DNA from: Escherichia phage phiLLS
Length of the DNA: 64,000 nt
Sequence record: NC_047822.1
Reading direction: 5' to 3' (one strand)
Part shown: positions 1-35,062 of the stretch, piece by piece
How the letters are laid out: the number at the start of each line of letters is the position of its first letter
Position numbering within the stretch: the first letter of the stretch is position 1
The notes under the pieces: generated by a model
Database searches by the model: none
What the model saw: only the letters and a program-made list of their open reading frames with translations
Told to the model about the DNA's origin: nothing
Program-made: the position numbers and the translations under genes

Positions 1-30
1 GATTGCTGGCGAATTTAATTAAAAATTTAT

Positions 31-72
31 TTGCTAAATGCTTATAAATTCTGTATAATATATTCATAAATT
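31..72 (+). promoter_or_regulatory. T5-type early promoter (TTGCTA-17bp-TATAAT plus downstream ATAAATT element)
   Basis: -35 TTGCTA at 31-36, -10 TATAAT at 54-59, conserved CATAAATT downstream; same architecture recurs more than 14 times in the window. Confidence 0.6.
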
Positions 73-297
73 AGAGAACAGCGAGCCGATTACGCTGAAC
101 TTGTCTTAATGTAAGATGCGTCGAGCACTAAGATTCGTTGAATAGAGTCGGTGGGTTAGTTGTAAAACTAGTACACAGGGGGCGGCAATCCCGGTTAGTG
201 GCTAGAACGTGTAAAATGAGGCGTCTGAAACCTCTCCCCTAAACTCTTCTCTAATTTATAAATAGTGGGGTGTGGAAATCACTTATGTAGTAACACT

Positions 298-369
298 GCC
301 GTCCTAGTATAATTGGTATTATCAAGCCGTAACCGGTGGAAGATGTAGGTTCGAATCCTACGGTCGGTA
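298..369 (+). ncRNA. tRNA-like element (canonical T-arm, fold unresolved)
   Basis: GTAGG-TTCGAAT-CCTAC T-arm at 345-361; acceptor pairing only 6/7 and no clean anticodon arm found by hand. Confidence 0.3.
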
Positions 370-872
370 AGAACTGGATAACTGATGCTTTTAACGTAAA
401 AGCTTCCGAGGTTAGTTGCGCACTGCCTAAACCACGCGGTAGTTGGTTCCAGACTAACCAACCAGTCTGCTGAATAGTTTTATTACGATTTAACTATGTC
501 CAGGCTAAAGAAGAACTTTAGAAGGTATTCTAGGATAGTGAAGTTCTTTCTCCATATCGGAGTAGTTTTTCAAGCTATCCACAAAGTGGGAAATGCTGAC
601 ATGAGAGATGTCACTAATGGTGCACAATAGCACAGGTAATTCGCGATAACTCCTGTTGAGTAGCAGCAAAAGGCGGGAAGTCATGACCCCAAGCCTAACC
701 GAGTCCTCAATATACCGCAGGACATAACCACTAAGTCACCCTGACTTAAACTGGAAAATAATAGACGTTACTGTATTTTGTCTTGAAATACTTAATGAGT
801 GAGACTTATGACTCTCCCGGTATCGTCTGTATTTTTAAGAGTTTTTTACGAGAGTTCTTAAAAATACTTAAA

Positions 873-947
873 CGGGGTGTAGTCTAAGGGAGAGGCAGGA
901 GTCTTCTAAATTCCTTTATGCAGGTTCGAATCCTGTCACCTCGGCCA
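873..947 (+). tRNA. tRNA-Arg (anticodon TCT)
   Basis: Hand-folded cloverleaf: acceptor CGGGGTG/CACCTCG, T-arm GCAGG-TTCGAAT-CCTGT, anticodon loop CTTCTAA, encoded CCA. Confidence 0.55.
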
Positions 948-981
948 ATTTTATTAACTGTAACTAAAACAAAGGAAATAT

Positions 982-1929
982 ATGTTTGCTACTAAAAATA
1001 TGAAAGAACTGACTTCTGAGCAGAAAGTAATTCGTACTATTAAACGTTGGGGTATTGGTGCTGTAGTTGGTTTAGCAGGTTTAGTCCTAGCTTTTAATTC
1101 ATATACTATTGTTTCTGATGGTACGGTTAAAACCCAAACATTCCTGGGTAAAGTAGACCCTAATCCTGTATTACCTGGTTTTCATCTTGTAAACCCATTT
1201 GCATCTTTCGATACTTTTAGTACAAAAGACATTGCTGTAAAATTAGATAAACTTCAGGTTCCTAGTCAGGATAAGTTTAAATCCACTGTTGACCTGACTG
1301 TTATGTTGCAGTTTGATGGTTCTAAGGCACCAATTAACCGTATTAACGCAGGTACTCAGGACCAGGCGCTAGACAAGTATGTAACTGAAAAATTACTGTC
1401 TACTATTCGTGAGTTTGGTAAATCTGTACCTAAAGCACAAGATTTATTTGATGCTAAAATTCAGGCTCAATTGCAAACTGCAATTCAACAGGAAGTTGAA
1501 GAGTATGCACGCCCATATGGTTACACAGTTAAGCAGGTGTTTCTTCAGGATATTACTTTGCCACCAGTAATTATGGAGCAAGTACAAAATACAAAAGTTC
1601 GTGAAGAACAAGTTAATGCGGCTAAAGCTGAATTGGCTCGTGTTGAACAAGAAGCACAGCAGAAAGTCAAACAAGCTGAAGCAGATCGTGAAGCACGTAA
1701 CAACCAAGCTATCGCTAATGAACGTGACGCCGATGCTAAGCTGTATGCAGCTAAGAAAGAAGCTGAAGCTAACGCCGCATTGCAACGTACCATTACTCCT
1801 GAGATGATTCGTTGGAAGCAATTGGAAGTCGAAATGATTCGTGCTCAGAAATATCAAGGTGGTGTACCTCAGACTGTGGTAGGTACTGGCTACGATGGTC
1901 AAATGATCATGGATATGCGTAATAAATAA
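982..1929 (+). CDS. SPFH/band-7 (HflC/prohibitin-like) membrane protein
   Basis: 315 aa; N-terminal TM helix, SPFH-like core, Ala/Glu/Lys-rich coiled-coil C-terminus; RBS AAGGAAATA before ATG. Confidence 0.55.
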   Translation: MFATKNMKELTSEQKVIRTIKRWGIGAVVGLAGLVLAFNSYTIVSDGTVKTQTFLGKVDPNPVLPGFHLVNPFASFDTFSTKDIAVKLDKLQVPSQDKFKSTVDLTVMLQFDGSKAPINRINAGTQDQALDKYVTEKLLSTIREFGKSVPKAQDLFDAKIQAQLQTAIQQEVEEYARPYGYTVKQVFLQDITLPPVIMEQVQNTKVREEQVNAAKAELARVEQEAQQKVKQAEADREARNNQAIANERDADAKLYAAKKEAEANAALQRTITPEMIRWKQLEVEMIRAQKYQGGVPQTVVGTGYDGQMIMDMRNK

Positions 1930-1954
1930 TATCCGCACGTAACATCTGAAGTAA

Positions 1955-1989
1955 GCCCTGCGTTCCCTGGAGAGCGCAGGGCTTTTCTG
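1955..1989 (+). terminator. Rho-independent terminator
   Basis: GCCCTGCG...CGCAGGGC hairpin followed by TTTTCTG. Confidence 0.6.
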
Positions 1990-2006
1990 TACTTAAGATA
2001 AAAGAA

Positions 2007-2040
2007 AAGCCCCTAAGTCTTTCTACTAGGGGCTTTATTG
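2007..2040 (-). terminator. Rho-independent terminator for the minus-strand module
   Basis: GCCCCTA...TAGGGGC hairpin with T-run on the minus strand, downstream of 2050..3684. Confidence 0.45.
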
Positions 2041-2049
2041 TTTGGTTTC

Positions 2050-2244
2050 TTAGAACCATATACTCTTGTTACAGCAACCACCCATACGGGAGGCCAATCT
2101 TGACTGAAAATCTACTCTAGGGGGCAGGATAAGAGTAGGCTTAAAGGCAAAGGGATTGAACGCCGGTATTTGTGTAAACATTGCTGGAGAGCAACAACGT
2201 GCTACAGGCATTGGGCAGCACGAAACAGATTTTCTGCAACACAT
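2050..2244 (-). CDS. small Cys-rich protein (64 aa)
   Basis: Four CC dipeptides; strong RBS AAGGAGA 6 nt upstream; immediately follows stop of 2254..2670. Confidence 0.45.
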   Translation of the reverse strand: MCCRKSVSCCPMPVARCCSPAMFTQIPAFNPFAFKPTLILPPRVDFQSRLASRMGGCCNKSIWF

Positions 2245-2253
2245 AATTTCTCC

Positions 2254-2670
2254 TTAGGAGTTATTACCACCATTTTGAGCTTTTGCAACTTGGCTTTGGC
2301 AGAAGCTATTAAACTTACCCATAAGTGATACAAGCTGTTTCCCATCCTCTGTCTTTGCGAAGTCTTCGAAAAGGGCTAGTACTGCCTGTCCTTCCGCAGA
2401 AACCTGCGGTTGTTGGGTTTGTTGCTGAACTTGCTGCTGAGCCACCTGTTGCTGCATTTGTTGAGGCATTTGCGACTGCCCGCTCATTTGCTGCATCATT
2501 TGCATAGGACTCACACTTCCAGGGTTTTGCTGGAGTTGTTGCTGCATCTGTTGCGCTTCTGCTAAACGCTGTTGCAATTGTTGTAAGTAGGGGTTATCCA
2601 GACCCGGAATGGGCTGCTGGGAGCCCCTACTTTGATTAAGTCCGTTATTTACAAAACCATATTTACTCAT
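2254..2670 (-). CDS. Gln-rich low-complexity protein (138 aa)
   Basis: Long Q-rich tract; RBS GGAGG upstream; codirectional with 2692..3684. Confidence 0.5.
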   Translation of the reverse strand: MSKYGFVNNGLNQSRGSQQPIPGLDNPYLQQLQQRLAEAQQMQQQLQQNPGSVSPMQMMQQMSGQSQMPQQMQQQVAQQQVQQQTQQPQVSAEGQAVLALFEDFAKTEDGKQLVSLMGKFNSFCQSQVAKAQNGGNNS

Positions 2671-2691
2671 AATGGGCTCCTCCCCCTAATA

Positions 2692-3684
2692 TTAAGCCGG
2701 CAGTTTAGCCTGCAGACCAGCCAGAGTCTGAGTGATAGCACCAAGACTTACAGCGATTTGATTAATTACCTGACCGTTAGCACCGTTACCCGCAGCGATT
2801 GCTTCACGTAGGCGACATGCATCTAACTCATCCTGAATACGAGCAGTAGTTACACCAGCGATAGCAGTCTGAAGTTCACAGCAACATTCAGCGATCTGAC
2901 GTTCCAGAGAGTTCTGGTTAGCACACATCTGAGCCTGAACAGCGGCAAACTGGTTATTAGTTTGTAAAGTCTGCTGGAAAGCGATCTGTGCAGAATCAAA
3001 CTTATCTTGTGCACGAGCTATCTGATTAGCTGCGAAAGATTGATCAATCTGGCGAGAAAGATCGAACTGACCCTGAATAACGTTGCGAGTTTCCTGACAG
3101 ATCTGATTAGACAGATTAGCACCTGTACCATAGATCGTAGTTAGTACAGACTGAGTATCACGGCTCTGGTTTTGGGATGTCTGGCTAAACCCATTGTTAA
3201 CTGCGCTTAAAACAGCTCCAGTACCCTGGTTAGCTTCTGTACGAGTAGTGTTAATAGCTGCTAGAATACTAGCGGTATCTTGGTTCTGAAGTACTGCATC
3301 AACTGCGGTACCATCACCAACTACACCACGTCCACCGAATCCACCGAAACCACCGAATCCGCCTGTTAATAGAGCACCGATTAGGATAGCTCCGAATAGT
3401 CCCATACCTTCACCACCGAAAGCACCTGCGTTTGCTGGGTAACCACCCAGTAGGCCAGGGAAGCCACTAGTAAATACGTTTACTGGTTCTTGCATTTTAT
3501 GTTTTCCATATTTATGACAATGTTCATCGTCATCTTCTTCATCATCGTGTTCACGATGTTTTTCTTCGTAGGCTCTGACCTTCTCCCACTTTTTCTTATC
3601 TGATTCCTCGTGACGGTGCAGTTCTGCTGCAACGCTAGCGACGGTCTCAGGACTCTTAGCTACTTCTTCTGTCATTTTTGACAC
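2692..3684 (-). CDS. hypothetical protein with acidic His-rich N-terminus, Gly-rich hydrophobic segment and Q/N-rich C-terminus (330 aa)
   Basis: Strong RBS AGGAGGTG; uninterrupted 993-nt ORF; own sigma70-like promoter upstream. Confidence 0.55.
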   Translation of the reverse strand: MSKMTEEVAKSPETVASVAAELHRHEESDKKKWEKVRAYEEKHREHDDEEDDDEHCHKYGKHKMQEPVNVFTSGFPGLLGGYPANAGAFGGEGMGLFGAILIGALLTGGFGGFGGFGGRGVVGDGTAVDAVLQNQDTASILAAINTTRTEANQGTGAVLSAVNNGFSQTSQNQSRDTQSVLTTIYGTGANLSNQICQETRNVIQGQFDLSRQIDQSFAANQIARAQDKFDSAQIAFQQTLQTNNQFAAVQAQMCANQNSLERQIAECCCELQTAIAGVTTARIQDELDACRLREAIAAGNGANGQVINQIAVSLGAITQTLAGLQAKLPA

Positions 3685-3736
3685 CTCCTAGTATATAGAA
3701 AATGTGTGTCTCTTTGATCACTCATCCATAACATAT

Positions 3737-3765
3737 ACTTTACACTACCCCAGCGAAAATGTCAA
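3737..3765 (-). promoter_or_regulatory. sigma70-like promoter TTGACA-17-TAAAGT for the minus-strand module
   Basis: RC of 3760-3765 is TTGACA, RC of 3737-3742 is TAAAGT, spacer 17 bp. Confidence 0.45.
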
Positions 3766-3882
3766 GGGGTCTTTAAAAATTGCCCCTGAATTTTTAGTGG
3801 GGTCACAAATTTTGGTCCTCACCACTTATCTGCTATCCTTAAGTGCCCTATGATTTTCCTCTAAAAAGTTAAAAAAATTTGA

Positions 3883-3925
3883 TTGCTTGAATGCTAAATT
3901 CTCTGTATAATATATCTATAAATTT
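3883..3925 (+). promoter_or_regulatory. T5-type early promoter
   Basis: TTGCTT at 3883-3888, TATAAT at 3906-3911, downstream ATAAATTTGAAAGAGG. Confidence 0.55.
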
Positions 3926-3941
3926 GAAAGAGGAACCAAAT

Positions 3942-4460
3942 ATGAATGTTGATGAGCTAACACAGCACCTCTTATCTAGAGGATTTGATACAGATAAATA
4001 TCATTGCTGGTTAAGTCCGGAAGGATGGCTAACAGTCCCGTTGTATGACTTCTCTGGGATGTTGAGGGGCTATCAAACTTATAATCCTTCTGCTCCAAAA
4101 GGTCATGGTAAGTGCCCCTTTGAAGCTAAATACTTTACTTATTCTACTACCCAGTGTGTATGGGGACTAGAAACTCTCAATGGAGATGAAAAAGTAGTAT
4201 TGATTGCTGAATCTGTATTTAAGGCAGTTGCGTTACATAATGCTGGTTATCCAGCCCTAGCAATGTTGGGTTCTTCTCCAGGAAAAGCGTTATTAAAGCA
4301 ACTGAAATTACTACCTTTTAAATTGGTAGCTGTCGGAGATAATGATCCTGCGGGTGAAAAATTTGCTAGAAAATTAAACGGCTTTGTTTCTCCCGTAGAT
4401 GTGGATGAGATGTCTACCGAAAACTTGAAAAATTTTCTTGCTATGAAGCTAAATTTCTAA
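3942..4460 (+). CDS. hypothetical protein, possible Toprim-like fold
   Basis: Start moved to the ATG after the promoter and RBS; VLIAES and VGDNDPAGEK motifs resemble Toprim Glu and DxD. Confidence 0.45.
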   Translation: MNVDELTQHLLSRGFDTDKYHCWLSPEGWLTVPLYDFSGMLRGYQTYNPSAPKGHGKCPFEAKYFTYSTTQCVWGLETLNGDEKVVLIAESVFKAVALHNAGYPALAMLGSSPGKALLKQLKLLPFKLVAVGDNDPAGEKFARKLNGFVSPVDVDEMSTENLKNFLAMKLNF

Positions 4461-4480
4461 TATAATATATCTTATAAATT
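4438..4480 (+). promoter_or_regulatory. T5-type early promoter driving a tRNA pair
   Basis: TTGCTA 4438-4443, TATAAT 4461-4466, spacer 17; tRNA begins at 4482. Confidence 0.55.
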
Positions 4481-4481
4481 C

Positions 4482-4570
4482 GGAAGAATAGCATAACGGT
4501 ATTGCAGCAGATTGCTAATCTGTCGGTTTGAAATATAGCCTTGTGGGTTCGATTCCCGCTTCTTCCGCCA
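4482..4570 (+). tRNA. tRNA-Ser (anticodon GCT), long variable arm
   Basis: Acceptor GGAAGAA/TTCTTCC, T-arm GTGGG-TTCGATT-CCCGC, anticodon loop TTGCTAA, 89 nt, CCA encoded. Confidence 0.6.
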
Positions 4571-4577
4571 AATTCTG

Positions 4578-4654
4578 GTTCTCAAGCTCATATGGTATGA
4601 GCACCCGGCTCATAACCGGAAGGTACGTAGGTTCGAATCCTCGGGGAGCCACCA
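4578..4654 (+). tRNA. tRNA with anticodon CAT (Met, fMet or Ile-lysidine)
   Basis: Acceptor GGTTCTC/GGGAGCC, T-loop TTCGAAT, anticodon loop CTCATAA. Confidence 0.55.
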
Positions 4655-4673
4655 AATTAAATAGAGGTCACAA

Positions 4674-4862
4674 ATGGATCTATATATAGTTTATGTTGTG
4701 TTTATCCAAGATAGAGAATACCCGGATGAATATAAAAAAGGGTATAGGTTGGCCAGAGCTACCTCTGAAGCCCAAGCTATGGATAAAGTGGCAGATTATA
4801 TGATTACGGTAGAAAACATACACTATATCGACTACCTTGAAGCCTCAAAAGTAATTGACTAA
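4674..4862 (+). CDS. hypothetical protein (62 aa)
   Basis: ORF with RBS-like AGAGG upstream. Confidence 0.4.
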   Translation: MDLYIVYVVFIQDREYPDEYKKGYRLARATSEAQAMDKVADYMITVENIHYIDYLEASKVID

Positions 4863-4869
4863 ACTACAC

Positions 4870-4946
4870 GGGGGTGTAATCGAATTGGCATAGGTACTGG
4901 ACTTAAAATTCAGGTTTTGTGGGTTCGAATCCCACCACCCCTACCA
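4870..4946 (+). tRNA. tRNA with anticodon TAA (Leu codon reader) in a 77-nt short-variable-arm scaffold
   Basis: Acceptor GGGGGTG/CACCCCT, T-arm GTGGG-TTCGAAT-CCCAC, anticodon stem CTGGA/TTCAG, loop CTTAAAA. Confidence 0.5.
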
Positions 4947-4961
4947 AACTAAGGAAATAAG

Positions 4962-5129
4962 ATGTATAGACATCCACCTCCGCCAACACGTCGTTCTAGA
5001 GAAGTTATCCTCATGGAATTGACTAAAAACTTCAAGGCAACTCTTGAAGATAGAGATCTAGGTACAGATGAAGACGTTGATTTCATTTGTAAACTATTAA
5101 AAATGAAGCTGGAGAAACATCATGGCTAA
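4962..5129 (+). CDS. hypothetical protein (55 aa)
   Basis: RBS AAGGAAATAAG; stop overlaps start of next ORF. Confidence 0.4.
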   Translation: MYRHPPPPTRRSREVILMELTKNFKATLEDRDLGTDEDVDFICKLLKMKLEKHHG

Positions 5130-5328
5130 CCGTGAAATTACTATGCAACGAATCATGACTAAAGGCATGATAGCCGAGGCAGGTATTGAACAAGAAGTAA
5201 AAGGCTATTACGAACAGATTAAGACTATTATAGACTCTGCTAAAAACACCGGAGAAAAAGAGCATGGTGCGGCAATTATGGCTATAACTCTTATTAGTCT
5301 AGACTTGGCCGAAGAATCTGGAGTTTAG
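5122..5328 (+). CDS. hypothetical protein (68 aa)
   Basis: ATG overlaps upstream stop, suggesting translational coupling. Confidence 0.45.
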   Translation: MANREITMQRIMTKGMIAEAGIEQEVKGYYEQIKTIIDSAKNTGEKEHGAAIMAITLISLDLAEESGV

Positions 5329-5358
5329 CTCCTCCAAACAGAATTTTTAAAAATGTAC

Positions 5359-5402
5359 TTGCCTTTTGCTTTAAATTTCTGATATAATAGTTATATAAAT
5401 TG
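5359..5402 (+). promoter_or_regulatory. T5-type early promoter
   Basis: TATAAT 5383-5388 with -35-like TTGCCT and downstream ATAAATTGATGGAGG. Confidence 0.5.
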
Positions 5403-5418
5403 ATGGAGGAGTTAACGA

Positions 5419-5694
5419 ATGCAAAATCGTGTTGTAGCAACTGGTATTGAAAGTGCAATCTGTAAATCCTGGGAAGGCTGGGAAGGTGAGATTGAATGGC
5501 TTTATTTCTATGATGTAGAACTTCTACCGGAAGTTAAAGCTAAATGTATTGAAGCTGGCATGGCTCCAGATGCAAAAGCTGATATTGATATTTTAATGTC
5601 TGAACTTAAAGGTCGTGTAGTTACCGTTAGTAATGAGGGCGAAGAAGTTTTCGAACTTCCGTTCTCCTTAACTGTCACTCCTAAGTTCGACTAA
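5419..5694 (+). CDS. hypothetical protein (91 aa)
   Basis: RBS GGAGGAG 8 nt upstream of ATG. Confidence 0.5.
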   Translation: MQNRVVATGIESAICKSWEGWEGEIEWLYFYDVELLPEVKAKCIEAGMAPDAKADIDILMSELKGRVVTVSNEGEEVFELPFSLTVTPKFD

Positions 5695-5724
5695 CTAATA
5701 CAGCACTGAGCAAGTTCTTTAAAA

Positions 5725-5775
5725 TTTGACTTGCTCAGTGCTATAAAACTTGATATAATAGTTATCTAATTTGGA
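5725..5775 (+). promoter_or_regulatory. T5-type early promoter driving a tRNA cluster
   Basis: TTGACT/TTGCTC then TATAAT 5754-5759; tRNAs follow. Confidence 0.45.
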
Positions 5776-5893
5776 AAGTTCTTTTTAAGGTAGTTCCTAC
5801 TTTAGTAGAGTAAATTTTTGGCAGATGGCCCCCACCATTTTACCGATAACTCCTAGTCAGTGCGGCAACACTGGCTACCTTAAAGAGAATTTT

Positions 5894-5981
5894 GGGCGTT
5901 TATTCCGTAAGTGGTAGCGGAGGGGATTGTAAATCCCTGGTCATTGCGACTCGAGTGGTTCGACTCCATTAACGCCCACCA
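5894..5981 (+). tRNA. tRNA-Tyr (anticodon GTA), long variable arm
   Basis: Acceptor GGGCGTT/AACGCCC, T-loop TTCGACT, anticodon loop TTGTAAA, 88 nt. Confidence 0.55.
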
Positions 5982-5988
5982 ATTTAAT

Positions 5989-6063
5989 GCACCTATCGTC
6001 TAGCGGTTAGGACACCACTCTTTCACAGTGGGAACACGAGTTCGACCCTCGTTGGGTGTGCCA
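5989..6063 (+). tRNA. tRNA-Glu (anticodon TTC)
   Basis: Acceptor GCACCTA/TGGGTGT, T-arm ACGAG-TTCGACC-CTCGT, anticodon loop CTTTCAC. Confidence 0.55.
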
Positions 6064-6072
6064 ATTAATAAT

Positions 6073-6143
6073 TGGGGTACGCATAGGTTGCAAATGGGCC
6101 TCCAAAACCCATGAAAAGGTTTCGAATACCTTTACCCCTGCCA
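6073..6143 (+). tRNA. tRNA-Trp (anticodon CCA)
   Basis: T-arm AAGGT-TTCGAAT-ACCTT, anticodon loop CTCCAAA; first acceptor pair mismatched. Confidence 0.45.
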
Positions 6144-6149
6144 AAATTT

Positions 6150-6224
6150 GCACCTTTAGCTGAGATGGATTAGCGCTTGCCTGAAGAGCTTGAGAGGTTC
6201 GTTCGATTCGAACAGGGTGCACCA
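6150..6224 (+). tRNA. tRNA-Phe (anticodon GAA)
   Basis: Acceptor GCACCTT/AGGGTGC, D-stem GCTG/TAGC, anticodon loop CTGAAGA (weak stem), T-arm GTTCG-TTCGATT-CGAAC. Confidence 0.5.
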
Positions 6225-6241
6225 ATTTGAAGGAGCTGCTG

Positions 6242-6514
6242 ATGCATACTGAAAACTTCTTTATTTACTGCGCGGATAAGTCGCTGAAACGTAGAATTAA
6301 CAAAGTCTATCATTATCGTGTTAGTCAACAGCCTTATGTATATGCTTTTGACGGTGATCACATTCCACTAGAACAATTATCTTGTGATTACATGATATTG
6401 AAGAACTTTGACGAGACAAAGATCTCAAGCGTTCATAATCGACAGAATCCATTAACGTGGAAATATAAGAAGAAAAAGAAAGGCATCAAATTCTTAAAAA
6501 ATGTAGTTGCTTAG
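6242..6514 (+). CDS. hypothetical protein (about 90 aa)
   Basis: Start set at ATG after RBS AAGGAG; follows tRNA-Phe directly. Confidence 0.4.
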   Translation: MHTENFFIYCADKSLKRRINKVYHYRVSQQPYVYAFDGDHIPLEQLSCDYMILKNFDETKISSVHNRQNPLTWKYKKKKKGIKFLKNVVA

Positions 6515-6550
6515 TTTCCAAAAGTTCTGTATAATAATTACATAAATTGA
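6507..6550 (+). promoter_or_regulatory. T5-type early promoter
   Basis: TTGCTT 6507-6512, TATAAT 6530-6535, spacer 17. Confidence 0.55.
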
Positions 6551-6583
6551 ACTGGAGAAGCAACATGACAGAATAAGATAAAC

Positions 6584-6659
6584 CGACCGTTGGCTGAATG
6601 GCTTAGGCGAAGGATTGCAAATCCTTTTTATGTGAGTTCAAATCTCATGCGGTCGTCCA
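6584..6659 (+). tRNA. tRNA-Cys (anticodon GCA)
   Basis: Acceptor CGACCGT/GCGGTCG, T-arm GTGAG-TTCAAAT-CTCAT, anticodon loop TTGCAAA. Confidence 0.55.
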
Positions 6660-6680
6660 AATTACTAAAGGAAAGAAGTA

Positions 6681-7199
6681 GTGCATACAAAAGTTTTTGA
6701 TAGTTTGGTAAAGAAAGGCATTGTTACTAATAAGCCTTTCTGTATAACCGCAGAACTAATCCAAAGATTTATGGAAGAATATATAAATCTTTCAGGAACT
6801 AATGGTAATACCAAAAAGAATACAAATACTATGTATTCGAGAAAACTTGCCGCACTTTCCTTTATAAAGTTTAAGCAGGAAAATAAACTTCCTATTTCTG
6901 AAGGTTTTGTATACTGTATTAGTAATCCTGCATGGAAAAATCAGTATAAAATAGGTATGAGTCAAAATCCAAAAGAGAGATTAGCTCAATATCAGACCTA
7001 TTCCCCCTATAGGGATTATAAATTAGAGCATTGGTCGTTTTGGTTTGACAAACGAAAAGGTGAAAAACTAATTCACCAGTATTTCAAAGATTTAAAAGAA
7101 CATGAGTGGTTTAGTATAAATTCTAGGGATCTTAGTAAATATCTAGAACGTATTAACTCTAGTTCTGACTTATATGGTTCCTTAGCTCTAATTGGTTAG
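6681..7199 (+). CDS. GIY-YIG-like (T5orf172-type) endonuclease domain protein
   Basis: GTG start with RBS AAAGGAAAG; VYCISNP...YKIGMS motif; 3' end overlaps tRNA-Asn by about 24 nt. Confidence 0.5.
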   Translation: MHTKVFDSLVKKGIVTNKPFCITAELIQRFMEEYINLSGTNGNTKKNTNTMYSRKLAALSFIKFKQENKLPISEGFVYCISNPAWKNQYKIGMSQNPKERLAQYQTYSPYRDYKLEHWSFWFDKRKGEKLIHQYFKDLKEHEWFSINSRDLSKYLERINSSSDLYGSLALIG

Positions 7200-7253
7200 A
7201 GCGGCATCTTGTTAAGTTGAGGGTTGCTGGTTCGAATCCAGCAGGAACCGCCA
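7176..7253 (+). tRNA. tRNA-Asn (anticodon GTT)
   Basis: Acceptor GGTTCCT/AGGAACC, D-stem GCTC/GAGC, anticodon loop TTGTTAA (weak stem), T-arm GCTGG-TTCGAAT-CCAGC. Confidence 0.5.
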
Positions 7254-7355
7254 AATTCTGTGTAGAGTTAAGTAAACCGGTAGCCAACCAGCTATCATTG
7301 CTGACATCGAATTCAGCCACAGATACCATTTTCATTAATAACTGAGGAAATAAGC

Positions 7356-7541
7356 ATGTCCAAGAATGTAATTGCGCAGCTAGAAGTTCATCGTGATAGC
7401 ACTATCAACAATATTGAAGTTGAAAAGAAATACATCGAAGAACTTAAACACGATATACTAATAAGTCTCAATCGTCTTAATGTACGAAAAGAGTTTCTTA
7501 AAGAACTTAATGCAGCTATTGAAAAACTCAAAGCTGAGTAA
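7356..7541 (+). CDS. hypothetical protein (61 aa)
   Basis: RBS GAGGAAATAAG upstream of ATG. Confidence 0.4.
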   Translation: MSKNVIAQLEVHRDSTINNIEVEKKYIEELKHDILISLNRLNVRKEFLKELNAAIEKLKAE

Positions 7542-7550
7542 ATGAATTAT

Positions 7551-7627
7551 GCGACCGGGGCTGGCTTGGTAATGGTACTCCCCTGTCACGGGAGGGAATG
7601 TGGGTTCAAATCCCATCGGTCGCGCCA
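7551..7627 (+). tRNA. tRNA-Asp (anticodon GTC)
   Basis: Acceptor GCGACCG/CGGTCGC, anticodon stem CTCCC/GGGAG with loop CTGTCAC, T-loop TTCAAAT. Confidence 0.6.
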
Positions 7628-7652
7628 AATTAATTTAGTATGAGAATATACT

Positions 7653-8000
7653 ATGCGTAATGCCAAAGAAGAGCTGTTACTTGCCTTAAAAAATACTAAT
7701 TCTGAAGTTAAATGTATTAAAATAGAATTCGGGTATTATGGGGATAAAAAAGTTTGGGTATTGCCTTTAGGTTACACAGAAGAAGATATTGAGGATTTTC
7801 TTAATAACCTAGACTTTAAATATGACTCTGGGTACGGTGGACAATTACTTTATGGTAATGTATGGTTTGCCGATGGAACTTGGCTAGAACGTGGAGAATA
7901 TGATGGTGCTGAGTGGTGGGAATACAAAGCCACACCAGCAATTCCAGAGGAATGCCGAACAATTAATGGTGAAGTAGATAATACTTTACGGTTAAACTAA
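7653..8000 (+). CDS. hypothetical protein (115 aa)
   Basis: ORF between tRNAs; compositional fit to neighbours. Confidence 0.45.
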   Translation: MRNAKEELLLALKNTNSEVKCIKIEFGYYGDKKVWVLPLGYTEEDIEDFLNNLDFKYDSGYGGQLLYGNVWFADGTWLERGEYDGAEWWEYKATPAIPEECRTINGEVDNTLRLN

Positions 8001-30656: not shown

Positions 30657-31256
30657 GTCGGATTTGCACACTGATATTCTAGAAATTTATGGTAGGATTT
30701 GCACAAATGCCTAAGTTTTTAGGAACTCTTACTCTCCTGAAAATAGCAGCATTATTTCGGGCCGAAGGCCCATGATTGCCTGAGTTTTTAGAGCCACAGA
30801 AATTTTCACTTGTCAAGCTATTTTGCCCCATTTTGCTAATAAAATTTCGCTTTTTCTGCACCTATCTCAAATTAACCCAAGTTATCTCACATCTCCTCCA
30901 AAATCCCCGCGGATCAGGTGCTCCGCACCAAACATGCGCTACATCCTTCTAGCCCCCAAATTTCTCTCACTCTCTCATCTTCTCCTCAAACCCACACAAT
31001 CACACACCCTCCAATCGAAGTCACAAAAATCTTGTCGGATTCGCACATCTTAATCCTAGAAAAACCGTGTCGGATTTGCACATACTCCACAGGATTGATG
31101 CGCAGCATCGGATTGCTGGAGTTTTTGGAAAAATTCATTGTCGGATTTGCACACTATAAAAATTTTTCGGGTCGGATTTGCACACTACCAAAAATTGTCG
31201 GATTTGCACATACGTGCCCGCACGTAACACCCGTGGAGCAATGTCGGATTTGCACA
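30657..31256. repeat. iteron array: 8 copies of 14-bp GTCGGATTTGCACA (two with 1 mismatch)
   Basis: Copies at 30657, 30692, 31034, 31069, 31140, 31171, 31197, 31243; non-coding. Confidence 0.8.
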
Positions 31257-31259
31257 AAA

Positions 31260-31281
31260 GCGCAGGGCAATTGCCCTGCGC
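31260..31281. repeat. perfect 22-bp palindrome GCGCAGGGCAATTGCCCTGCGC
   Basis: Read directly; sits between the two repeat families. Confidence 0.8.
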
Positions 31282-31284
31282 TAA

Positions 31285-31500
31285 ATACGAATGATAATAA
31301 GAATCATTCTCATTTAAAAAGCGGAATGAGAATGATAATAATTCGCATTTAGAAAGTGAAATGAGAATCAATCTCATTTAAGAAAGGGAATGAGAACTAT
31401 TCAAAAAGTGAAATGATTCTCATTTAGGAAAGGAAATGATTATCGGTTAGATAGTGGAATGCGAATGATAATGATTTGCATTTAAGAATGGAAGTGAGAA
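31285..31500. repeat. array of about 9 AATGAGAAT-type motifs, several as inverted pairs
   Basis: GGAATGAGAATGATAAT, GAAATGAGAATCAATCTCATTT, GGAATGAGAAC, GAAATGATTCTCATTT and others. Confidence 0.7.
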
Positions 31501-31520
31501 ACACTGTTATTTAAGTTATC

Positions 31521-31623
31521 CACAGACTTATCAACAGCACGATTTGACTTGACAGAATCCTAGCCATTTTGAAGCGTTATTAACAGACTTATCCACAGCT
31601 TATCCTACTGTATAAATATACAG
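31521..31623. repeat. left inverted repeat with DnaA-box-like TTATCCACA motifs
   Basis: ACAGACTTATCCACAGCTTATCCTACTGTATAAATATACAG (31583-31623) matches the RC of 34631-34671 with 1 mismatch; outer arms match imperfectly. Confidence 0.75.
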
Positions 31624-31744
31624 TATTCCTACGTAGTGAATAATTCTAATATACCGCTAAAACGTCCTGAATCGCATTCTAACGCGTTTAATTTTGGTGG
31701 GGATACTAAAACAAGGGGGTATTTAACTGGAGGCATGGAAAAAC

Positions 31745-31775
31745 GGGGAGCTAATCCCCGTCGTTCTCAGAGTAG
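31745..31775 (-). terminator. Rho-independent terminator ending the minus-strand 7-gene operon
   Basis: On minus strand ACGGGGATTAGCTCCCCGT hairpin followed by TTTTT. Confidence 0.55.
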
Positions 31776-31876
31776 CGGGCAACCGTTACGCTTTGCCCAC
31801 TCCCGCCACTCATCTTGATGTCTAGATTTGCGACGGCGTACTAAAAACCGCTTATACCAGTGATTAAACCATCGTT

Positions 31877-32080
31877 TCATAAACCATCCTCCGGTAATTG
31901 ATGCGTGATCTTTTCCTCTTCCCCATAGGAATCGACCAAATGCTGATAATAACCATCGTGATCATAAATCACTTTATCATACTCGCCACGCTCGACCGCT
32001 TGCCGGTTTTCTGGCGTATCGGGCACGTAAAAAACGTCAACCATTGTACTGATTTTGGTTACAACAATTTTATTGCTCAT
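31877..32080 (-). CDS. hypothetical acidic protein (67 aa), last gene of the island operon
   Basis: RBS GGGGG; codirectional with six upstream genes. Confidence 0.45.
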   Translation of the reverse strand: MSNKIVVTKISTMVDVFYVPDTPENRQAVERGEYDKVIYDHDGYYQHLVDSYGEEEKITHQLPEDGL

Positions 32081-32098
32081 AATAACCCCCGTTATTAA

Positions 32099-32257
32099 TT
32101 ATTTGCGTAAATATACGCTTGCCAATAGTCCAGCTAGAAAGCCCGCCGATACACCAAATGAAGCCACACCGGGAACACTAGCACCATGAGCATATAAAGC
32201 CCAGCAAATTACATAAGGCAACAACGGAAACATGCCAGCTATTAAAAACTTTTTCAT
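32099..32257 (-). CDS. small membrane protein (52 aa)
   Basis: Not in ORF track; MKKFLIAGMFPLLPYVICWALYAHG...; ATGA overlap with upstream stop. Confidence 0.4.
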   Translation of the reverse strand: MKKFLIAGMFPLLPYVICWALYAHGASVPGVASFGVSAGFLAGLLASVYLRK

Positions 32258-32598
32258 TGCGCCACCTTTCGAAACGCTGTTTCAATACTATCCGCAGTGG
32301 ATTGAATATACGCGCCTTTCATTACTAGGCGCTCGGTGCATATCTTGCGGAAAATATTAATAAAATCATCTTCATTTTCTGCAATTAACGCTTCACCCAT
32401 AACCTGAACGTCACAAGATGCAAAGGTCAAAAATTGAAACGCTAGTTCACGGGCAACGACCGCATTAATCTTATAATGCGCTTTGCCCTCATAAATATTA
32501 ATAACGCCCTTATAAGCTGGTGAAAGCTGGTTTAAATAGTTTGCTAACAATGCCGGGCGGCAATTAGCAACAAAGCGGTTGCCTTCATAAATAACCAT
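32254..32598 (-). CDS. hypothetical protein (114 aa)
   Basis: Start set at MVIYEG (TAAaATG junction with upstream gene); ORF track extends to 32637. Confidence 0.45.
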   Translation of the reverse strand: MVIYEGNRFVANCRPALLANYLNQLSPAYKGVINIYEGKAHYKINAVVARELAFQFLTFASCDVQVMGEALIAENEDDFINIFRKICTERLVMKGAYIQSTADSIETAFRKVAQ

Positions 32599-32599
32599 T

Positions 32600-32812
32600 T
32601 TATAACACCCCACGAAACGCAGCGTAAAAGGTGGCAAAGTGTTTAACCGTTTCAGCGATCACGTTGCCGCGCTTGTCAAATTTCTTTTCTGTAACACGAA
32701 AGGCATTCTTATTACGTGCTACATATTCGATTTTACAATCTTCACGCTCGAACGTGTTAACATCCACCAGCTTAAAGCCTTTCGAACGAGCAAGAGAAAC
32801 GTTGCGGATCAT
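32600..32812 (-). CDS. hypothetical basic protein (70 aa)
   Basis: RBS AAGGAGAATAAAA. Confidence 0.45.
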   Translation of the reverse strand: MIRNVSLARSKGFKLVDVNTFEREDCKIEYVARNKNAFRVTEKKFDKRGNVIAETVKHFATFYAAFRGVL

Positions 32813-32814
32813 TT

Positions 32815-32970
32815 TTATTCTCCTTTACTAGTCATGCAGCCCAGCAGATAAGAAAAAACGGCGATACCCGCGCCGACAATAACGGCGTGAACGTCGAAAG
32901 CTATAGCAAAAAGTGATAAAATAGCACCCAAGATACCTGCTAGAATTGACCGAAAAATAACCATTTTCAT
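32815..32970 (-). CDS. small membrane protein (51 aa)
   Basis: Not in ORF track; MKMVIFRSILAGILGAILSLFAIAF...; RBS AGGGGAATG. Confidence 0.4.
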   Translation of the reverse strand: MKMVIFRSILAGILGAILSLFAIAFDVHAVIVGAGIAVFSYLLGCMTSKGE

Positions 32971-33010
32971 TCCCCTAGTTAATGGGGCGAAAGTAACGCC
33001 CCGTTATTAA

Positions 33011-33241
33011 TTACATTAAAACAATTTTTGCAGCTTGTTTTTTAGTACAGTGTTCCGCTTTCAGGGTATCCAGCAAAAAGCCCGCTGTTTGCTGATCAAT
33101 CTTATCAGCGTTGTATAGTTCTTGGATGGTGTTATAGGTTTTAGCAATGCCGAACTCCTGCACCATTTCATGAATAACAACACGATTAGATACCCAACCT
33201 TGCGCGGTGAACAGATGACTAGCAGAAGAATAAGCAACCAT
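33011..33241 (-). CDS. hypothetical protein (76 aa)
   Basis: Start set at MVAYSS after RBS GGAGG; ORF track extends to 33298. Confidence 0.45.
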   Translation of the reverse strand: MVAYSSASHLFTAQGWVSNRVVIHEMVQEFGIAKTYNTIQELYNADKIDQQTAGFLLDTLKAEHCTKKQAAKIVLM

Positions 33242-33358
33242 TTTAAACCTCCAAATTTTTGGGAAAATTTTCAATCCACCGTTTTGGTGTAAAAGCATTA
33301 TAACAAAAAAGGCCGCCTATTATGGCGACCTTTACAAAACTTTACACTAAATTAATTA

Positions 33359-34363: not shown

Positions 34364-34630
34364 TTTCTTGTCTCCCTCGTTAATCGGTGAGTAAATGATA
34401 AAGGTATTTTCTTTCTAGGGGCAAATATTATTTTACCTTTTTATTTTCCTTGCCTAGCGCCTAGTTTTATGCTAACCGCGCAGCGGTACAGTAAAGAGCA
34501 AAACACGGTGAAGCCGCTAGGGCGGCGCATTGAGGCTTTACTTTAATATTACCCCCACTGCATTTAGCTCGTTAGAAAGCGATTTAGGCCGCTTAAAATT
34601 GATTGCAGTTGTTAACACTACCTTTCTACC

Positions 34631-34740
34631 CTGTATATTTATACAGTAGGATAATCTGTGGATAAGTCTGTGTAAAAGTCCTTATATCGCCGCCTATCGT
34701 GTCAAATCATTTTGTGCTGTGGATAACGTTGGGGATAACT
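34631..34740. repeat. right inverted repeat (partner of 31521-31623) with DnaA-box-like motifs
   Basis: CTGTATATTTATACAGTAGGATAATCTGTGGATAAGTCTGT and downstream TGTGGATAAC. Confidence 0.75.
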
Positions 34741-34776
34741 TAAATGATAGTGGTTCTCACTCAGGCCGATAGTTTC

Positions 34777-34831
34777 TTATAGTTATTATTTCTATCGGTT
34801 ACGATTTCTTATAGTTATTATTTCTCATTAA
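34777..34831. repeat. tandem direct repeat TTTCTTATAGTTATTATTTCT x2
   Basis: Two 21-bp copies separated by ATCGGTTACGA. Confidence 0.75.
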
Positions 34832-35017
34832 TTTATAAGTATATTATATATTATGGAATAGTTAGTTGGCTAATGAGATTTTCCGTGATTAATAGTCTGC
34901 TAATAGTTTAAGCCGTTACAATCCACCAGCATGATTATCGTTCTAGCAATTATTAGTCTGCTATCTTTCCGATGCATACTAACAAATAAAAGTCAATTAA
35001 TTTATTTCATAAAATAA

Positions 35018-35062
35018 GTAGTTATCCACTGGAAAATAAAAGTCAAGTGGATAACTAGGAAA
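35018..35062. promoter_or_regulatory. inverted pair of DnaA-box-like sites (TTATCCACT / AGTGGATAA)
   Basis: AGTTATCCACTGG and AAGTGGATAACTA about 30 bp apart; more GATAA motifs to 35190. Confidence 0.5.

What the first reader, a model, noticed from the sequence alone, without database searches (positions are those of the whole stretch)
2050..3780. Divergent minus-strand module encoding Gly-rich membrane, Gln-rich and Cys-rich proteins under its own sigma70 promoter
These are the only minus-strand genes in the 30-kb early region. They have a near-consensus TTGACA-17-TAAAGT promoter rather than the T5-type early promoter, strong RBSs, a convergent terminator pair, and unusual low-complexity products: an acidic His-rich N-terminus with GFGGFGGFGG hydrophobic segment, poly-Q tracts, and CC-repeat peptide. 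This is compatible with a moron or host-interaction module.
Basis: seen in the sequence. Interest (0 to 1): 0.6.

Follow-up and report, generated by a model that had tools for sequence, protein, structure and literature searches.

The report
Mobile three-gene phage accessory cassette
The three backward-facing genes are real and form a self-contained, dispensable cassette (T5 genes T5.077-T5.079) that hops between unrelated phage families and encodes a membrane-anchored, cysteine-rich protein set whose function is still unknown.

Summary
Window 3765-1999 (minus strand) holds a TTGACA-17-TAAAGT promoter, three tightly coupled genes with strong ribosome-binding sites (A 327 aa, B 138 aa, C 64 aa) and a terminator facing the terminator of the neighbouring SPFH gene.

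The window is a T5-like phage, 98.7% identical to phage SP15. The unit equals T5.077, T5.078 and an unnamed CDS in T5, where promoter P12 and a bidirectional terminator are already annotated.

It is not housekeeping. About half of T5-like genomes lack it, with clean empty sites. It is deleted in the T5 st0 mutant and truncated in T5Mos. Its GC is 45-47% against 35-39% in the flanks.

The same A-B-C set occurs in an N4-like phage, a lambdoid phage (on the opposite strand, between Q and the lysis genes) and a Pseudomonas phage. An A-B pair sits at the end of a P2-like prophage.

A has a glycine-zipper anchor and a long Q/N-rich helical domain with an invariant CCC triad. That triad marks a wider uncharacterised family. 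B and C lack signal peptides, and C always starts MCC.

No known family, defence system or solved structure matches. The moron reading is supported. The function is inferred only: most likely a membrane-level role in competition or host interaction.

The parts
3737..3765 (-). Sigma-70-type promoter: TTGACA (3765-3760), 17 nt, TAAAGT (3742-3737). It equals T5 promoter P12.
   Evidence: Found by the scan. T5 annotates it as 'promoter P12' at the homologous place. Identical hexamers and spacing occur in the distant copy L008 4917-4945. The -10 element and the 5' UTR survive in the Shivani empty site.
2692..3675 (-). Gene A (327 aa), homologue of T5.077. It has an N-terminal helix, a variable acidic/His-rich linker, a KMQEPVNVF motif, a glycine-zipper hydrophobic anchor and a long Q/N-rich helical domain with invariant C251 and C264-C266.
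   Evidence: ORF. Matches PHROG 8119 at E = 4e-203. Alignment A1 gives the invariant columns. pN/pS is 0.16-0.26. AlphaFold2 gives an all-helical model of low confidence.
3334..3408 (-). Codons 90-114 of A: the hydrophobic glycine-zipper anchor GMGLFGAILIGALLTGGFGGFGGFG.
   Evidence: G90, G109 and G111 are invariant across 38 family members. Across the family, the 15 residues before the core hold no K/R in 16 of 18 members and one acidic residue in most, and a single conserved R follows the core in most.
2878..2886 (-). Codons 264-266 of A: the invariant Cys-Cys-Cys triad in the motif QIAECCCELQ.
   Evidence: Invariant in alignment A1. A CCC triad is present in 69 of 95 remote relatives, mostly in a Q(L/I)AECCCE(L/I)K context.
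2254..2670 (-). Gene B (138 aa), homologue of T5.078. It has an N-terminal YLQQLQQRL helix, a variable Q/P/M-rich linker and a conserved C-terminal domain (EGQAVLALFEDFAKTEDGKQLV...KFNSFCQS). It has no signal peptide.
   Evidence: Matches PHROG 7894 at E = 4e-79. The eight-lineage alignment A4 shows invariant E93, T107, G110, K111, L113 and K119. pN/pS is 0.12-0.35.
2050..2244 (-). Gene C (64 aa), equal to T5 AAS77125. It is a peptide that starts MCC, carries four CC pairs and an NPF motif, is rich in Pro and Phe, and has no signal peptide or lipobox.
   Evidence: Annotated as a CDS in T5. An MCC-initiated ORF sits at the same position in six separately sampled cassette versions; alignment A5 is. 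Its RBS TAAGGAG overlaps the stop codon of B.
1999..2036 (-). Rho-independent terminator of the A-B-C operon: a hairpin followed by a U-tract.
   Evidence: RNA fold of -16.9 kcal/mol, z = -2.73. T5 annotates it as an 'efficient bidirectional rho-independent transcription terminator'. Equivalent terminators follow C in L006 and L008.
1965..1990 (+). Converging terminator of the SPFH (band-7) gene. It is the outer boundary of the cassette and is retained in genomes that lack it.
   Evidence: Found by the scan. Homology between Shivani and the window runs up to window 1997.

Best explanation
The region is an autonomous, horizontally mobile accessory operon (a moron). It is transcribed from its own sigma-70 promoter (P12) against the flow of the T5-like early region, and it ends at a bidirectional terminator.

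Its three translationally coupled products are inherited together:
- A is anchored in the cytoplasmic membrane by a glycine-zipper segment. It carries a roughly 200-residue Q/N-rich helical domain with an 11-residue hydrophobic periodicity and an invariant Cys-Cys-Cys triad.
- B is a small Q/P-rich protein with a conserved C-terminal TxDGKQL...FCQ domain.
- C is a 49-69-residue peptide that begins Met-Cys-Cys and carries two to four CC pairs.

Inferred: the three form one membrane-associated complex, probably on the cytoplasmic face, held together through their conserved cysteines by metal-thiolate or disulfide links.

Inferred, and least certain: the complex alters the infected or lysogenic cell's membrane to the phage's advantage. 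The most likely form is exclusion of, or competition with, other phages. It does not serve replication, morphogenesis or lysis.

My probabilities: accessory, mobile and dispensable, about 0.9; the three proteins act together at the membrane, about 0.6; an exclusion or competition function, about 0.3.
For: Shown:
- Promoter, ribosome-binding sites and terminators are present, and T5 annotates P12 and the bidirectional terminator.
- A is in 221 phage records, against 442 for the adjacent SPFH gene.
- Shivani has a clean empty site lacking window 1998-3703 but keeping the -10 element, the 5' UTR and the outer terminator. Further empty sites occur in both Tequintavirus and Epseptimavirus.
- The module lies inside the deletion of the T5 st0 mutant. 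T5Mos (deletion 30661-38625) loses P12 and 561 bp of T5.077 and still plates on E. coli lacking PARIS (coordinates).
- GC is 0.45-0.47 against 0.35-0.39 in the flanks.
- The A-B-C set is found in distant T5-likes (L005, L008), an N4-like contig (L035), a lambdoid contig between Q and the holin on the opposite strand (L006, L007) and Pseudomonas phage RSP (L043). An A-like plus B-like pair sits at the end of a P2-like prophage in Enterobacter ludwigii.
- Purifying selection acts on A and B. Cysteines are conserved in all three proteins.

Supporting the membrane and cytoplasmic-face inference:
- The hydrophobic core has almost no K/R before it and, in most members, a conserved R after it.
- B and C have no signal peptide (sequence).
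- Hydrophobic periodicity is 3.65-3.70 over residues 125-250.
- Two remote relatives hit the apolipoprotein 11-mer repeat family.
Against: - No function is demonstrated, and no homologue is characterised. Pfam, NCBIfam, PADLOC and PDB sequence searches are all empty.
- Topology is unresolved. The 92-residue N-terminal tail holds 12 K/R, which argues against its export, while the residues flanking the anchor argue for a cytoplasmic C-terminal domain. A re-entrant, monotopic anchor is equally possible.
- Structure prediction is low-confidence (pLDDT 47-50), so no fold comparison was possible.
- In distant relatives (TAG-recoded gut phages, L046) the A-like gene lies co-directionally in late or structural-looking blocks, or just after an endolysin. 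This fits a structural or lysis role better than an exclusion role.
- Physical interaction of A, B and C is inferred from co-inheritance only.
Confidence: 0.55

Rival explanations
1. Lysis-related module. A would act as an i-spanin-like, holin-like or antiholin-like protein with a periplasmic, disulfide-stapled coiled coil. B and C would be accessory lysis factors.
For: - A has a single hydrophobic anchor followed by a long helical domain with conserved cysteines, as in Rz-type i-spanins.
- In the lambdoid contig the cassette abuts the holin, lysozyme and Rz genes.
- In L046 an A-like gene lies three genes after an Amidase_3 endolysin and a holin-like gene.
Against: - T5-likes have a separate holin, endolysin, i-spanin and o-spanin elsewhere in the genome (Shivani annotation; PMC4342426).
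- Half of T5-likes, including Shivani, lyse without the cassette.
- In the T5-like, lambdoid and N4-like copies the cassette is on the strand opposite to its neighbours; in the T5-like copies it has its own sigma-70 consensus promoter.
- C has no signal peptide or lipobox, so it cannot be an o-spanin.
- The anchor has almost no basic residues before it, unlike a signal-anchor.
Confidence: 0.1
2. Abortive-infection or toxin-like membrane effector. A would oligomerise through its glycine zipper into a pore. B and C would be cytoplasmic sensors or antidotes. The cassette would kill or arrest cells invaded by a competitor, in the manner of RexAB.
For: - A has a glycine-zipper anchor of the kind that forms homo-oligomeric channels in pinholins and in pore-forming toxins (from my own knowledge; motif G92-A96-G100-T104).
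- The cassette sits at cargo positions in prophages: the lambdoid Q-S region and the end of a P2-like prophage.
- A divergent Zn-ribbon ORF, a possible regulator, accompanies the cassette in three lineages.
Against: - No PADLOC model matches.
- The cassette is rare in bacterial genomes. There were no hits in 185,579 species representatives, 5,426 E. coli genomes or 72,556 plasmids; the only bacterial-genome copy came from the protein-cluster search.
- Most copies are in virulent phages, where suicide of the infected cell is not obviously useful.
Confidence: 0.15
3. Metal-handling module. The His-rich acidic tail of A, the Met/Gln-rich tract of B and the CC pairs of C would bind or buffer a transition metal (Zn, Cu or Ni) during infection.
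For: - Some T5-like A proteins carry HHYHHHHHEHYEE...HEHHH tracts.
- Window B carries the tract PMQMMQQMSGQSQMPQQM.
- CCC and CC motifs are conserved in A and C, and one Cys is conserved in B.
Against: - The His-rich and Met-rich tracts are lineage-specific. They are absent from the N4-like, lambdoid and distant T5-like copies.
- There is no similarity to any metal transporter or chaperone family.
Confidence: 0.08
4. Ordinary conserved early genes of T5-like phages that take part in host takeover and happen to be encoded on the other strand.
For: - The genes are present in T5 itself and in both Tequintavirus and Epseptimavirus.
- They are under purifying selection.
Against: - They are absent from about half of T5-like genomes.
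- They are deleted in the st0 mutant and truncated in T5Mos, which still plates.
- They are present as a unit in unrelated phage families.
Confidence: 0.04
5. Virion-associated or ejection protein set. A would be a membrane-penetrating internal protein, as its late-operon relatives in gut phages might be.
For: - A-like genes in TAG-recoded gut phages carry nine in-frame TAG codons and head blocks that lead to genes of 1,261-1,325 aa.
Against: - In the T5-like copies the unit has its own sigma-70 consensus promoter and lies far from the structural genes; in the T5-like, lambdoid and N4-like copies it is on the strand opposite to its neighbours.
- It is dispensable for plaque formation.
Confidence: 0.04

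Closest known systems
Lambdoid-phage morons (for example lambda bor and lom, HK97 gp15; Juhala/Hendrix concept)
   Same: A self-contained promoter-gene-terminator unit inserted between genes that are adjacent in relatives. Its base composition is deviant, its distribution is patchy, and it is often on the opposite strand. One copy sits in the classical Q-to-lysis slot of a lambdoid phage.
   Different: It has three co-inherited genes rather than one. Most copies are in virulent phages (T5-like, N4-like). There is no sequence similarity to any characterised moron product.
T5.077 / T5.078 / AAS77125 of phage T5 (GenBank AY543070), PHROG 8119 and PHROG 7894
   Same: Direct orthologues. A is about 81% identical, C is 64 of 64 identical, and the promoter (P12) and bidirectional terminator are the same.
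   Different: Nothing differs in kind. Those entries are annotated only as hypothetical proteins of unknown function.
Rz-type i-spanin
   Same: A bitopic inner-membrane protein with a long helical, cysteine-bearing domain. One copy of the cassette lies next to a lysis cassette.
   Different: - A has a 60-110-residue charged N-terminal domain.
- The anchor has almost no basic residues before it.
- There is no lipoprotein partner (C has no lipobox).
- The transcription unit is separate.
- T5-likes carry separate spanins.
Membrane-acting superinfection-exclusion proteins (T4 Imm/Sp, P22 SieA, HK97 gp15, T5 Llp)
   Same: Non-essential, membrane-located and carried as accessory genes. The expected expression is early or from the prophage. 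This is a functional analogy only.
   Different: There is no homology. Those systems are single proteins. An exclusion phenotype has not been tested here.
Vaccinia A27-A26 type coiled coils linked through adjacent cysteines, and 11-mer amphipathic repeat proteins (apolipoproteins, LEA)
   Same: The cysteine cluster is embedded in a helical repeat domain and is paired with a CC-containing partner. Hydrophobic periodicity is 3.67 residues. Two remote relatives hit Pfam Apolipoprotein.
   Different: The resemblance to A27-A26 is from my own knowledge and was not tested. No sequence or fold match was obtained, and the redox state and compartment of the cysteines are unknown.

Membership tests
Phage moron (autonomous accessory transcription unit) | Own promoter upstream and own terminator downstream | tested here: met
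   Consensus promoter and hairpin terminators are present. T5 annotates P12 and a bidirectional terminator. The same architecture is seen in L006 and L008. Activity was not measured here.
Phage moron (autonomous accessory transcription unit) | Lies between genes that are adjacent in related genomes (presence/absence polymorphism) | tested here: met
   In Shivani the Toprim and band-7 genes are 285 bp apart, and window 1998-3703 is missing. Other empty sites are listed. A is in 221 records against 442 for SPFH.
Phage moron (autonomous accessory transcription unit) | Base composition different from the surrounding genome | tested here: met
   GC is 0.45-0.47 across 2001-3500, 0.35-0.39 in the flanks and 0.39 for the whole window.
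Phage moron (autonomous accessory transcription unit) | Expressed independently of the neighbouring operons (for example from a repressed prophage) | not testable with these tools
   This needs transcript mapping. Only the orientation and promoter consensus are known.
PHROG 8119 / PHROG 7894 | Full-length significant match to the family profile | tested here: met
   A matches at E = 4.1e-203 over 1-327. B matches at E = 4.4e-79 over 1-138. C has no PHROG.
Two-component spanin (Rz/Rz1) | o-spanin partner with a lipoprotein signal peptide and lipobox cysteine | tested here: not met
   B and C have no hydrophobic N-terminal segment. C starts MCCRKS, without a signal sequence.
Two-component spanin (Rz/Rz1) | Encoded within or next to the lysis cassette and co-transcribed with it | tested here: not met
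   In T5-likes the holin, endolysin and spanins are annotated more than 9 kb away (Shivani). In the lambdoid contig the cassette is adjacent to the lysis genes but on the opposite strand.
Two-component spanin (Rz/Rz1) | i-spanin topology: N-in, with a periplasmic coiled coil | tested here: inconclusive
   The charges flanking the anchor favour a cytoplasmic C-terminal domain, while the charged N-tail argues against its export. No experimental topology is available.
Known anti-phage defence systems (PADLOC-DB v2) | Match of any component to a defence-system protein model | tested here: not met
   None of the eight proteins matched any family, including the distant copies and the Zn-ribbon ORF.
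Superinfection-exclusion proteins | Blocks adsorption, injection or development of a second phage | not testable with these tools
   This requires plating and injection assays. Only membrane location and accessory status are inferred.
CCC-motif helical family (uncharacterised; defined here) | Q(L/I)AECCCE(L/I)K motif followed about 25-30 residues later by an RLRD.L-like motif in a helical domain | tested here: met
   A has QIAECCCELQ, then ARIQDELDACRLREA. Of 95 remote hits, 69 carry CCC, mostly in this context. A1 against A2 by hhalign gives 97.7% probability, E = 2.3e-12.

The most novel reading that the evidence does not exclude
A, B and C would constitute a previously unrecognised kind of phage-borne membrane effector. 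It would be a glycine-zipper-anchored, hendecad-repeat helical scaffold whose Cys-Cys-Cys triad is bridged, by metal or disulfide, to a Met-Cys-Cys peptide and a small adaptor. Unrelated phages (T5-like, N4-like, lambdoid, P2-like, Pseudomonas siphophage) would trade it to win inter-phage competition or to neutralise a membrane-based host defence. The CCC helical module would be an ancient building block shared with non-phage, possibly giant-virus, proteins.
Probability: 0.25. Interest if true: 0.75.

Novelty: new member of a known kind. Interest (0 to 1): 0.5.

Why it matters
T5 is a classical model phage, yet most genes in its deletable tRNA region have no known role. That region is now known to carry counter-defence cargo, such as the tRNA-Lys that defeats PARIS (PMC11464382).

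This work shows that T5.077-T5.079 form a discrete, dispensable cassette shared by at least five unrelated phage lineages. That makes the cassette a well-defined candidate for a new competition, exclusion or counter-defence function.

The cassette is also easy to test. Natural isogenic-like phages with and without it already exist, as do the st0 and T5Mos deletion strains.

The work also defines an uncharacterised protein family by a very unusual invariant Cys-Cys-Cys triad in a helical repeat domain. That family has about a hundred 50%-identity clusters among 1.8 billion representative proteins.

Tried and rejected
- Spanin idea. I rejected it for T5-likes after reading the Shivani annotation and paper, which place the holin, endolysin and spanins elsewhere, and after seeing that C has no lipobox.
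- Family and defence searches. Pfam, NCBIfam and PADLOC gave only sub-threshold noise, such as RIFIN, Granulin and the DicA C-terminus at E = 0.007.
- PDB sequence searches, with a single sequence and with a profile. There was nothing significant; the best hit was SlyB at E = 3.3.
- AlphaFold2 of A, with 17 and then 38 sequences. Mean pLDDT was 46.7 and 50.5 and the model was all long helices, so I ran no fold search: the matches would be meaningless.
- AlphaFold2 of B with the cross-lineage alignment.
- Prophage copies. The GTDB species representatives gave no confirmed relative. E. coli complete genomes and plasmids gave no match to the lambdoid copy.
- IMG/VR and JGI metagenome scans. These returned only T5-like loci.
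- Rfam scan of window 1-8000. It found only tRNAs and nothing in the module.
- Literature. There were no papers for 'T5.077' or 'AECCCE', and nothing specific on this cassette.
- Close homologue search for C. It found only one 90%-identity cluster.
Full report
**What is there**

The window is a T5-like phage. Window 1900-3900 is 98.7% identical to Escherichia phage SP15 (Tequintavirus), and 216 phage records cover at least 80% of it.

On the minus strand lie three ORFs in tandem:
- A: 3675..2692, 327 aa. The start is the ATG 8 nt after AGGAGG.
- B: 2670..2254, 138 aa, preceded by GGGGGAGGAG.
- C: 2244..2050, 64 aa. Its TAAGGAG overlaps the stop codon of B.

Upstream is TTGACA-17-TAAAGT at 3765-3737. 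Downstream is a hairpin plus U-tract at about 2036-1999, folding at -16.9 kcal/mol with z = -2.7. It faces the terminator of the converging SPFH/band-7 gene at 1965-1981.

- A has an acidic, His-containing N-terminal part, then GMGLFGAILIGALLTGGFGGFGGFGG, then a long Q/N-rich stretch.
- B has poly-Q tracts.
- C has four CC pairs.

**It is already annotated in T5, but only as hypothetical**

In T5 (AY543070) the homologous place carries T5.077, T5.078 and an unnamed 64-aa CDS. The record also annotates 'promoter P12', an 'efficient bidirectional rho-independent transcription terminator' and, just beyond it, the major single-chain interruption of T5 DNA.

A and B belong to PHROG 8119 and PHROG 7894, both of unknown function. 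Pfam, NCBIfam, PADLOC and PDB sequence searches give nothing above noise. I found no paper dealing with these genes.

**The genes are real**

Against T5, Stitch and other T5-likes, pN/pS is 0.16-0.26 for A and 0.12-0.35 for B.

Within T5-likes, C is almost invariant, but so are its synonymous sites, so that comparison alone says little. The strong evidence for C comes from distant copies. An ORF of 49-69 codons that begins Met-Cys-Cys (Met-Cys-Gly-Cys-Cys in one case) and carries at least one more CC pair follows B directly in six separately sampled cassette versions, at only 31-43% identity.

**It is accessory, not housekeeping**

- By megablast the adjacent SPFH gene is found in 442 phage records. 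By tblastn A is found in 221 (one search gives the same 221 with a distant query).
- Phage Shivani (Tequintavirus) has the Toprim gene and the band-7 gene only 285 bp apart. Aligned to the window, it lacks exactly 1998-3703. It still keeps the -10 element and 5' UTR of P12 (window 3704-3747) and the outer terminator. This looks like loss of the coding part.
- Other compact empty sites occur in Gostya9, mar004NP2 and DaisyDussoix. They also occur in Epseptimavirus members such as S133, SP76 and mar003J3.
- The T5 st0 deletion mutant (AY692264) has an annotated recombination site. It has no counterpart of window 77-7524, whereas wild-type T5 is collinear over 734-4675.
- T5Mos carries a deletion of 30661-38625 and still plates on E. 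coli lacking PARIS (PMC11464382). By the coordinates, that deletion removes P12 (37954-38028) and the first 561 bp of T5.077.
- The module's GC is 0.45-0.47, against 0.35-0.39 on both sides.

**It moves as a unit between unrelated phages**

Protein searches found A homologues of 36-44% identity. Their contigs show the same gene set:
- Two distant T5-like contigs (L005, L008). L008 has the identical TTGACA-17-TAAAGT promoter and a converging terminator pair.
- An N4-like contig that carries the giant virion RNA polymerase gene (L035). A-B-C lies on the strand opposite to its neighbours.
- A lambdoid contig (L006, L007). The cassette lies on the opposite strand between the Q antiterminator and the holin-lysozyme-Rz genes, and ends at a bidirectional terminator. 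This is the classical moron slot.
- Pseudomonas phage RSP (L043). This copy is high in GC and lies next to the terminase gene.
- The end of a P2-like prophage in Enterobacter ludwigii (L040). Here there is a more distant A-like gene without the CCC triad, plus a B-like gene with the motif TPDGKAL. The pair lies between tail gene D and host genes.

In the lambdoid, N4-like and Pseudomonas copies, a small Zn-ribbon ORF is transcribed divergently from A. T5-likes lack it.

Among 50,697 isolate genomes, only T5-likes and three Pseudomonas records carry A. E. coli genomes and plasmids gave no match, and the GTDB species representatives gave no confirmed relative.

**Anatomy of the proteins**

*Protein A.* The alignment shows:
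- a conserved N-terminal helix (V15, L19, H22, D26);
- a variable acidic linker that is strikingly His-rich in some T5-likes;
- a KMQEPVNVF motif;
- the glycine-rich anchor (G90, G109 and G111 are invariant even across 38 family members);
- a helical domain with invariant C251, C264-C266 and a nearly invariant C-terminal NGQVINQIAVSLGAITQTLAALQ.

AlphaFold2 predicts long helices only, at low confidence (pLDDT 46.7 and 50.5). I therefore ran no fold search.

Hydrophobicity over residues 125-250 peaks at a period of 3.65-3.70 residues, which is hendecad-like rather than heptad.

In almost every family member the 15 residues before the hydrophobic core contain no K/R and one acidic residue. The 15 after it contain one conserved R in most members. 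By the positive-inside rule this favours a cytoplasmic C-terminal domain. The long charged N-tail of the T5-type proteins makes export of that tail unlikely, so a re-entrant anchor is possible. Topology is open.

*Proteins B and C.* Neither has a signal peptide. B keeps E93, T107, G110, K111, L113 and K119 in all lineages, and a Cys (FCQ) in seven of eight. C keeps M1, C2 and a second CC pair. Each of the three proteins therefore has conserved cysteines.

**A wider family**

- A profile search reached PHROG 16490 proteins of TAG-recoded, low-GC gut phages. hhalign of A1 against A2 gives 97.7% probability, E = 2.3e-12.
- The exhaustive HMM search over 1.84 billion representatives found 98 clusters at E of 1e-3 or better.
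- Of 95 remote hits, 69 carry a CCC triad, mostly in a Q(L/I)AECCCE(L/I)K context with an RLRD.L-like motif further on. Many are soluble proteins of about 200 aa without an anchor.
- None of these has a Pfam domain. The exceptions are two hits to Apolipoprotein and single hits to mRNA capping enzyme and others.
- One soluble member lies next to a 364-aa family-X DNA polymerase on short contigs, so the family probably reaches beyond phages.
- In the gut-phage and L046 contexts the A-like gene is co-directional with late-looking genes, or lies just after an endolysin. This is a caution against transferring any single function across the family.

**How it most likely works**

Shown: it is an autonomous, dispensable, horizontally mobile operon whose three genes are co-inherited and under purifying selection.

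Inferred:
- A is membrane-anchored with a long helical repeat domain.
- B and C are cytoplasmic partners.
- The conserved cysteines link the three, by a metal-thiolate cluster or by disulfides.
- The complex changes the membrane of the infected or lysogenic cell to the phage's advantage.

My best guess for that advantage is exclusion of, or competition with, other phages. I base this on the cargo positions in prophages, the carriage by several unrelated phage families, and the location in the T5 region that is now known to hold counter-defence cargo.

I put about 0.9 on 'accessory and mobile', about 0.6 on 'one membrane-associated complex' and about 0.3 on 'exclusion or competition'.

The rivals are a lysis-related role, an abortive-infection-type pore, metal handling, housekeeping and a virion component. 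They are weighed separately in this report. The housekeeping rival is contradicted by the data, and the lysis rival is weakened by the separate T5 lysis cassette.

The statement that the promoter is not of the 'T5-type' is not informative. All T5 gene classes use host sigma-70 polymerase (PMC7472727, PMC10644984), and P12 is part of the annotated T5 promoter set.

**Novelty**

The existence of the ORFs, the promoter and the terminator is already annotated in T5. As far as my searches show, the following points are new:
- the presence/absence pattern;
- the demonstration that the unit travels among T5-like, N4-like, lambdoid, P2-like and Pseudomonas phages;
- the co-inheritance of the MCC peptide;
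- the definition of a CCC-triad helical family.

I file the unit as a new member of a known kind (a phage moron), built from uncharacterised proteins.

Noticed in passing
window 2100-2600 (gene C and most of gene B): This segment is an island of nucleotide conservation. It is 96-100% identical to both T5 and the Epseptimavirus Stitch, while the flanks are 80-90% identical. Synonymous divergence is 0.02-0.13 here against 0.33-0.47 in gene A. Across 27 distinct T5-like sequences, mean pairwise identity is 0.96-0.99 here against 0.87-0.93 in the middle of A. The cause could be a recent recombinational sweep or an extra constraint at the nucleotide level; I did not resolve it. No Rfam family matches.
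   Followed up: partly
window ~1971-1978 (loop of the SPFH-gene terminator hairpin at 1965-1981): T5 annotates its major single-chain interruption about 75 nt beyond the stop of gene C, by a match to the consensus Pu-GCGC. The corresponding GAGCGCAG lies in the loop of the terminator hairpin of the window phage.
   Followed up: no
L006 4716-4919 (-), L035 5756-5911 (-), L043 4263-4409 (-): In the lambdoid, N4-like and Pseudomonas copies, a small conserved Zn-ribbon ORF is transcribed divergently from gene A. Its pattern is C..CG....C..CG..F...R.D...C.P.CR.RK.R. T5-likes lack it. It may be a dedicated regulator of the cassette.
   Followed up: partly
L044/L045 (gene at 2687-3463 of L044) and proteins P0049-P0139: The CCC-triad helical motif also occurs in many soluble proteins of about 200 aa that have no membrane anchor. 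One of them lies next to a 364-aa family-X DNA polymerase. One family member has an mRNA capping enzyme domain and two hit Apolipoprotein. The family may extend to eukaryotic (giant) viruses; the origin was not determined.
   Followed up: partly
L038 8001-9014; L041/L042 8001-8993: The distant A-like genes (PHROG 16490) lie in low-GC gut-phage contigs that read TAG as Gln, with nine in-frame TAG codons in the gene. They sit just downstream of a reverse transcriptase that looks like part of a diversity-generating retroelement, with C-type-lectin-like genes nearby.
   Followed up: no
L003 6001-7735 (phage Stitch), against window 3891-4460: On the promoter side of the cassette, Epseptimavirus phages carry a NadR-like nicotinamide-nucleotide adenylyltransferase and an NMN transporter. 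The window phage and T5 carry a small Toprim protein there. The cassette's neighbourhood is therefore itself a variable cargo region.
   Followed up: no
window 2254-2670 and 982-1929, as annotated in related GenBank records: Several records name the Q-rich protein B 'cAMP-dependent protein kinase catalytic subunit'. They name the SPFH/band-7 protein 'lipoprotein' or 'protease regulator'. The kinase name has no support from Pfam or NCBIfam here and looks like an artefact of low-complexity sequence.
   Followed up: partly
L043 (MK443266, Pseudomonas phage RSP): The only non-T5-like isolate genome with the cassette found here is an UNVERIFIED, unannotated GenBank record. The gene A ORF there extends far upstream in frame, so its true start is uncertain.
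   Followed up: no
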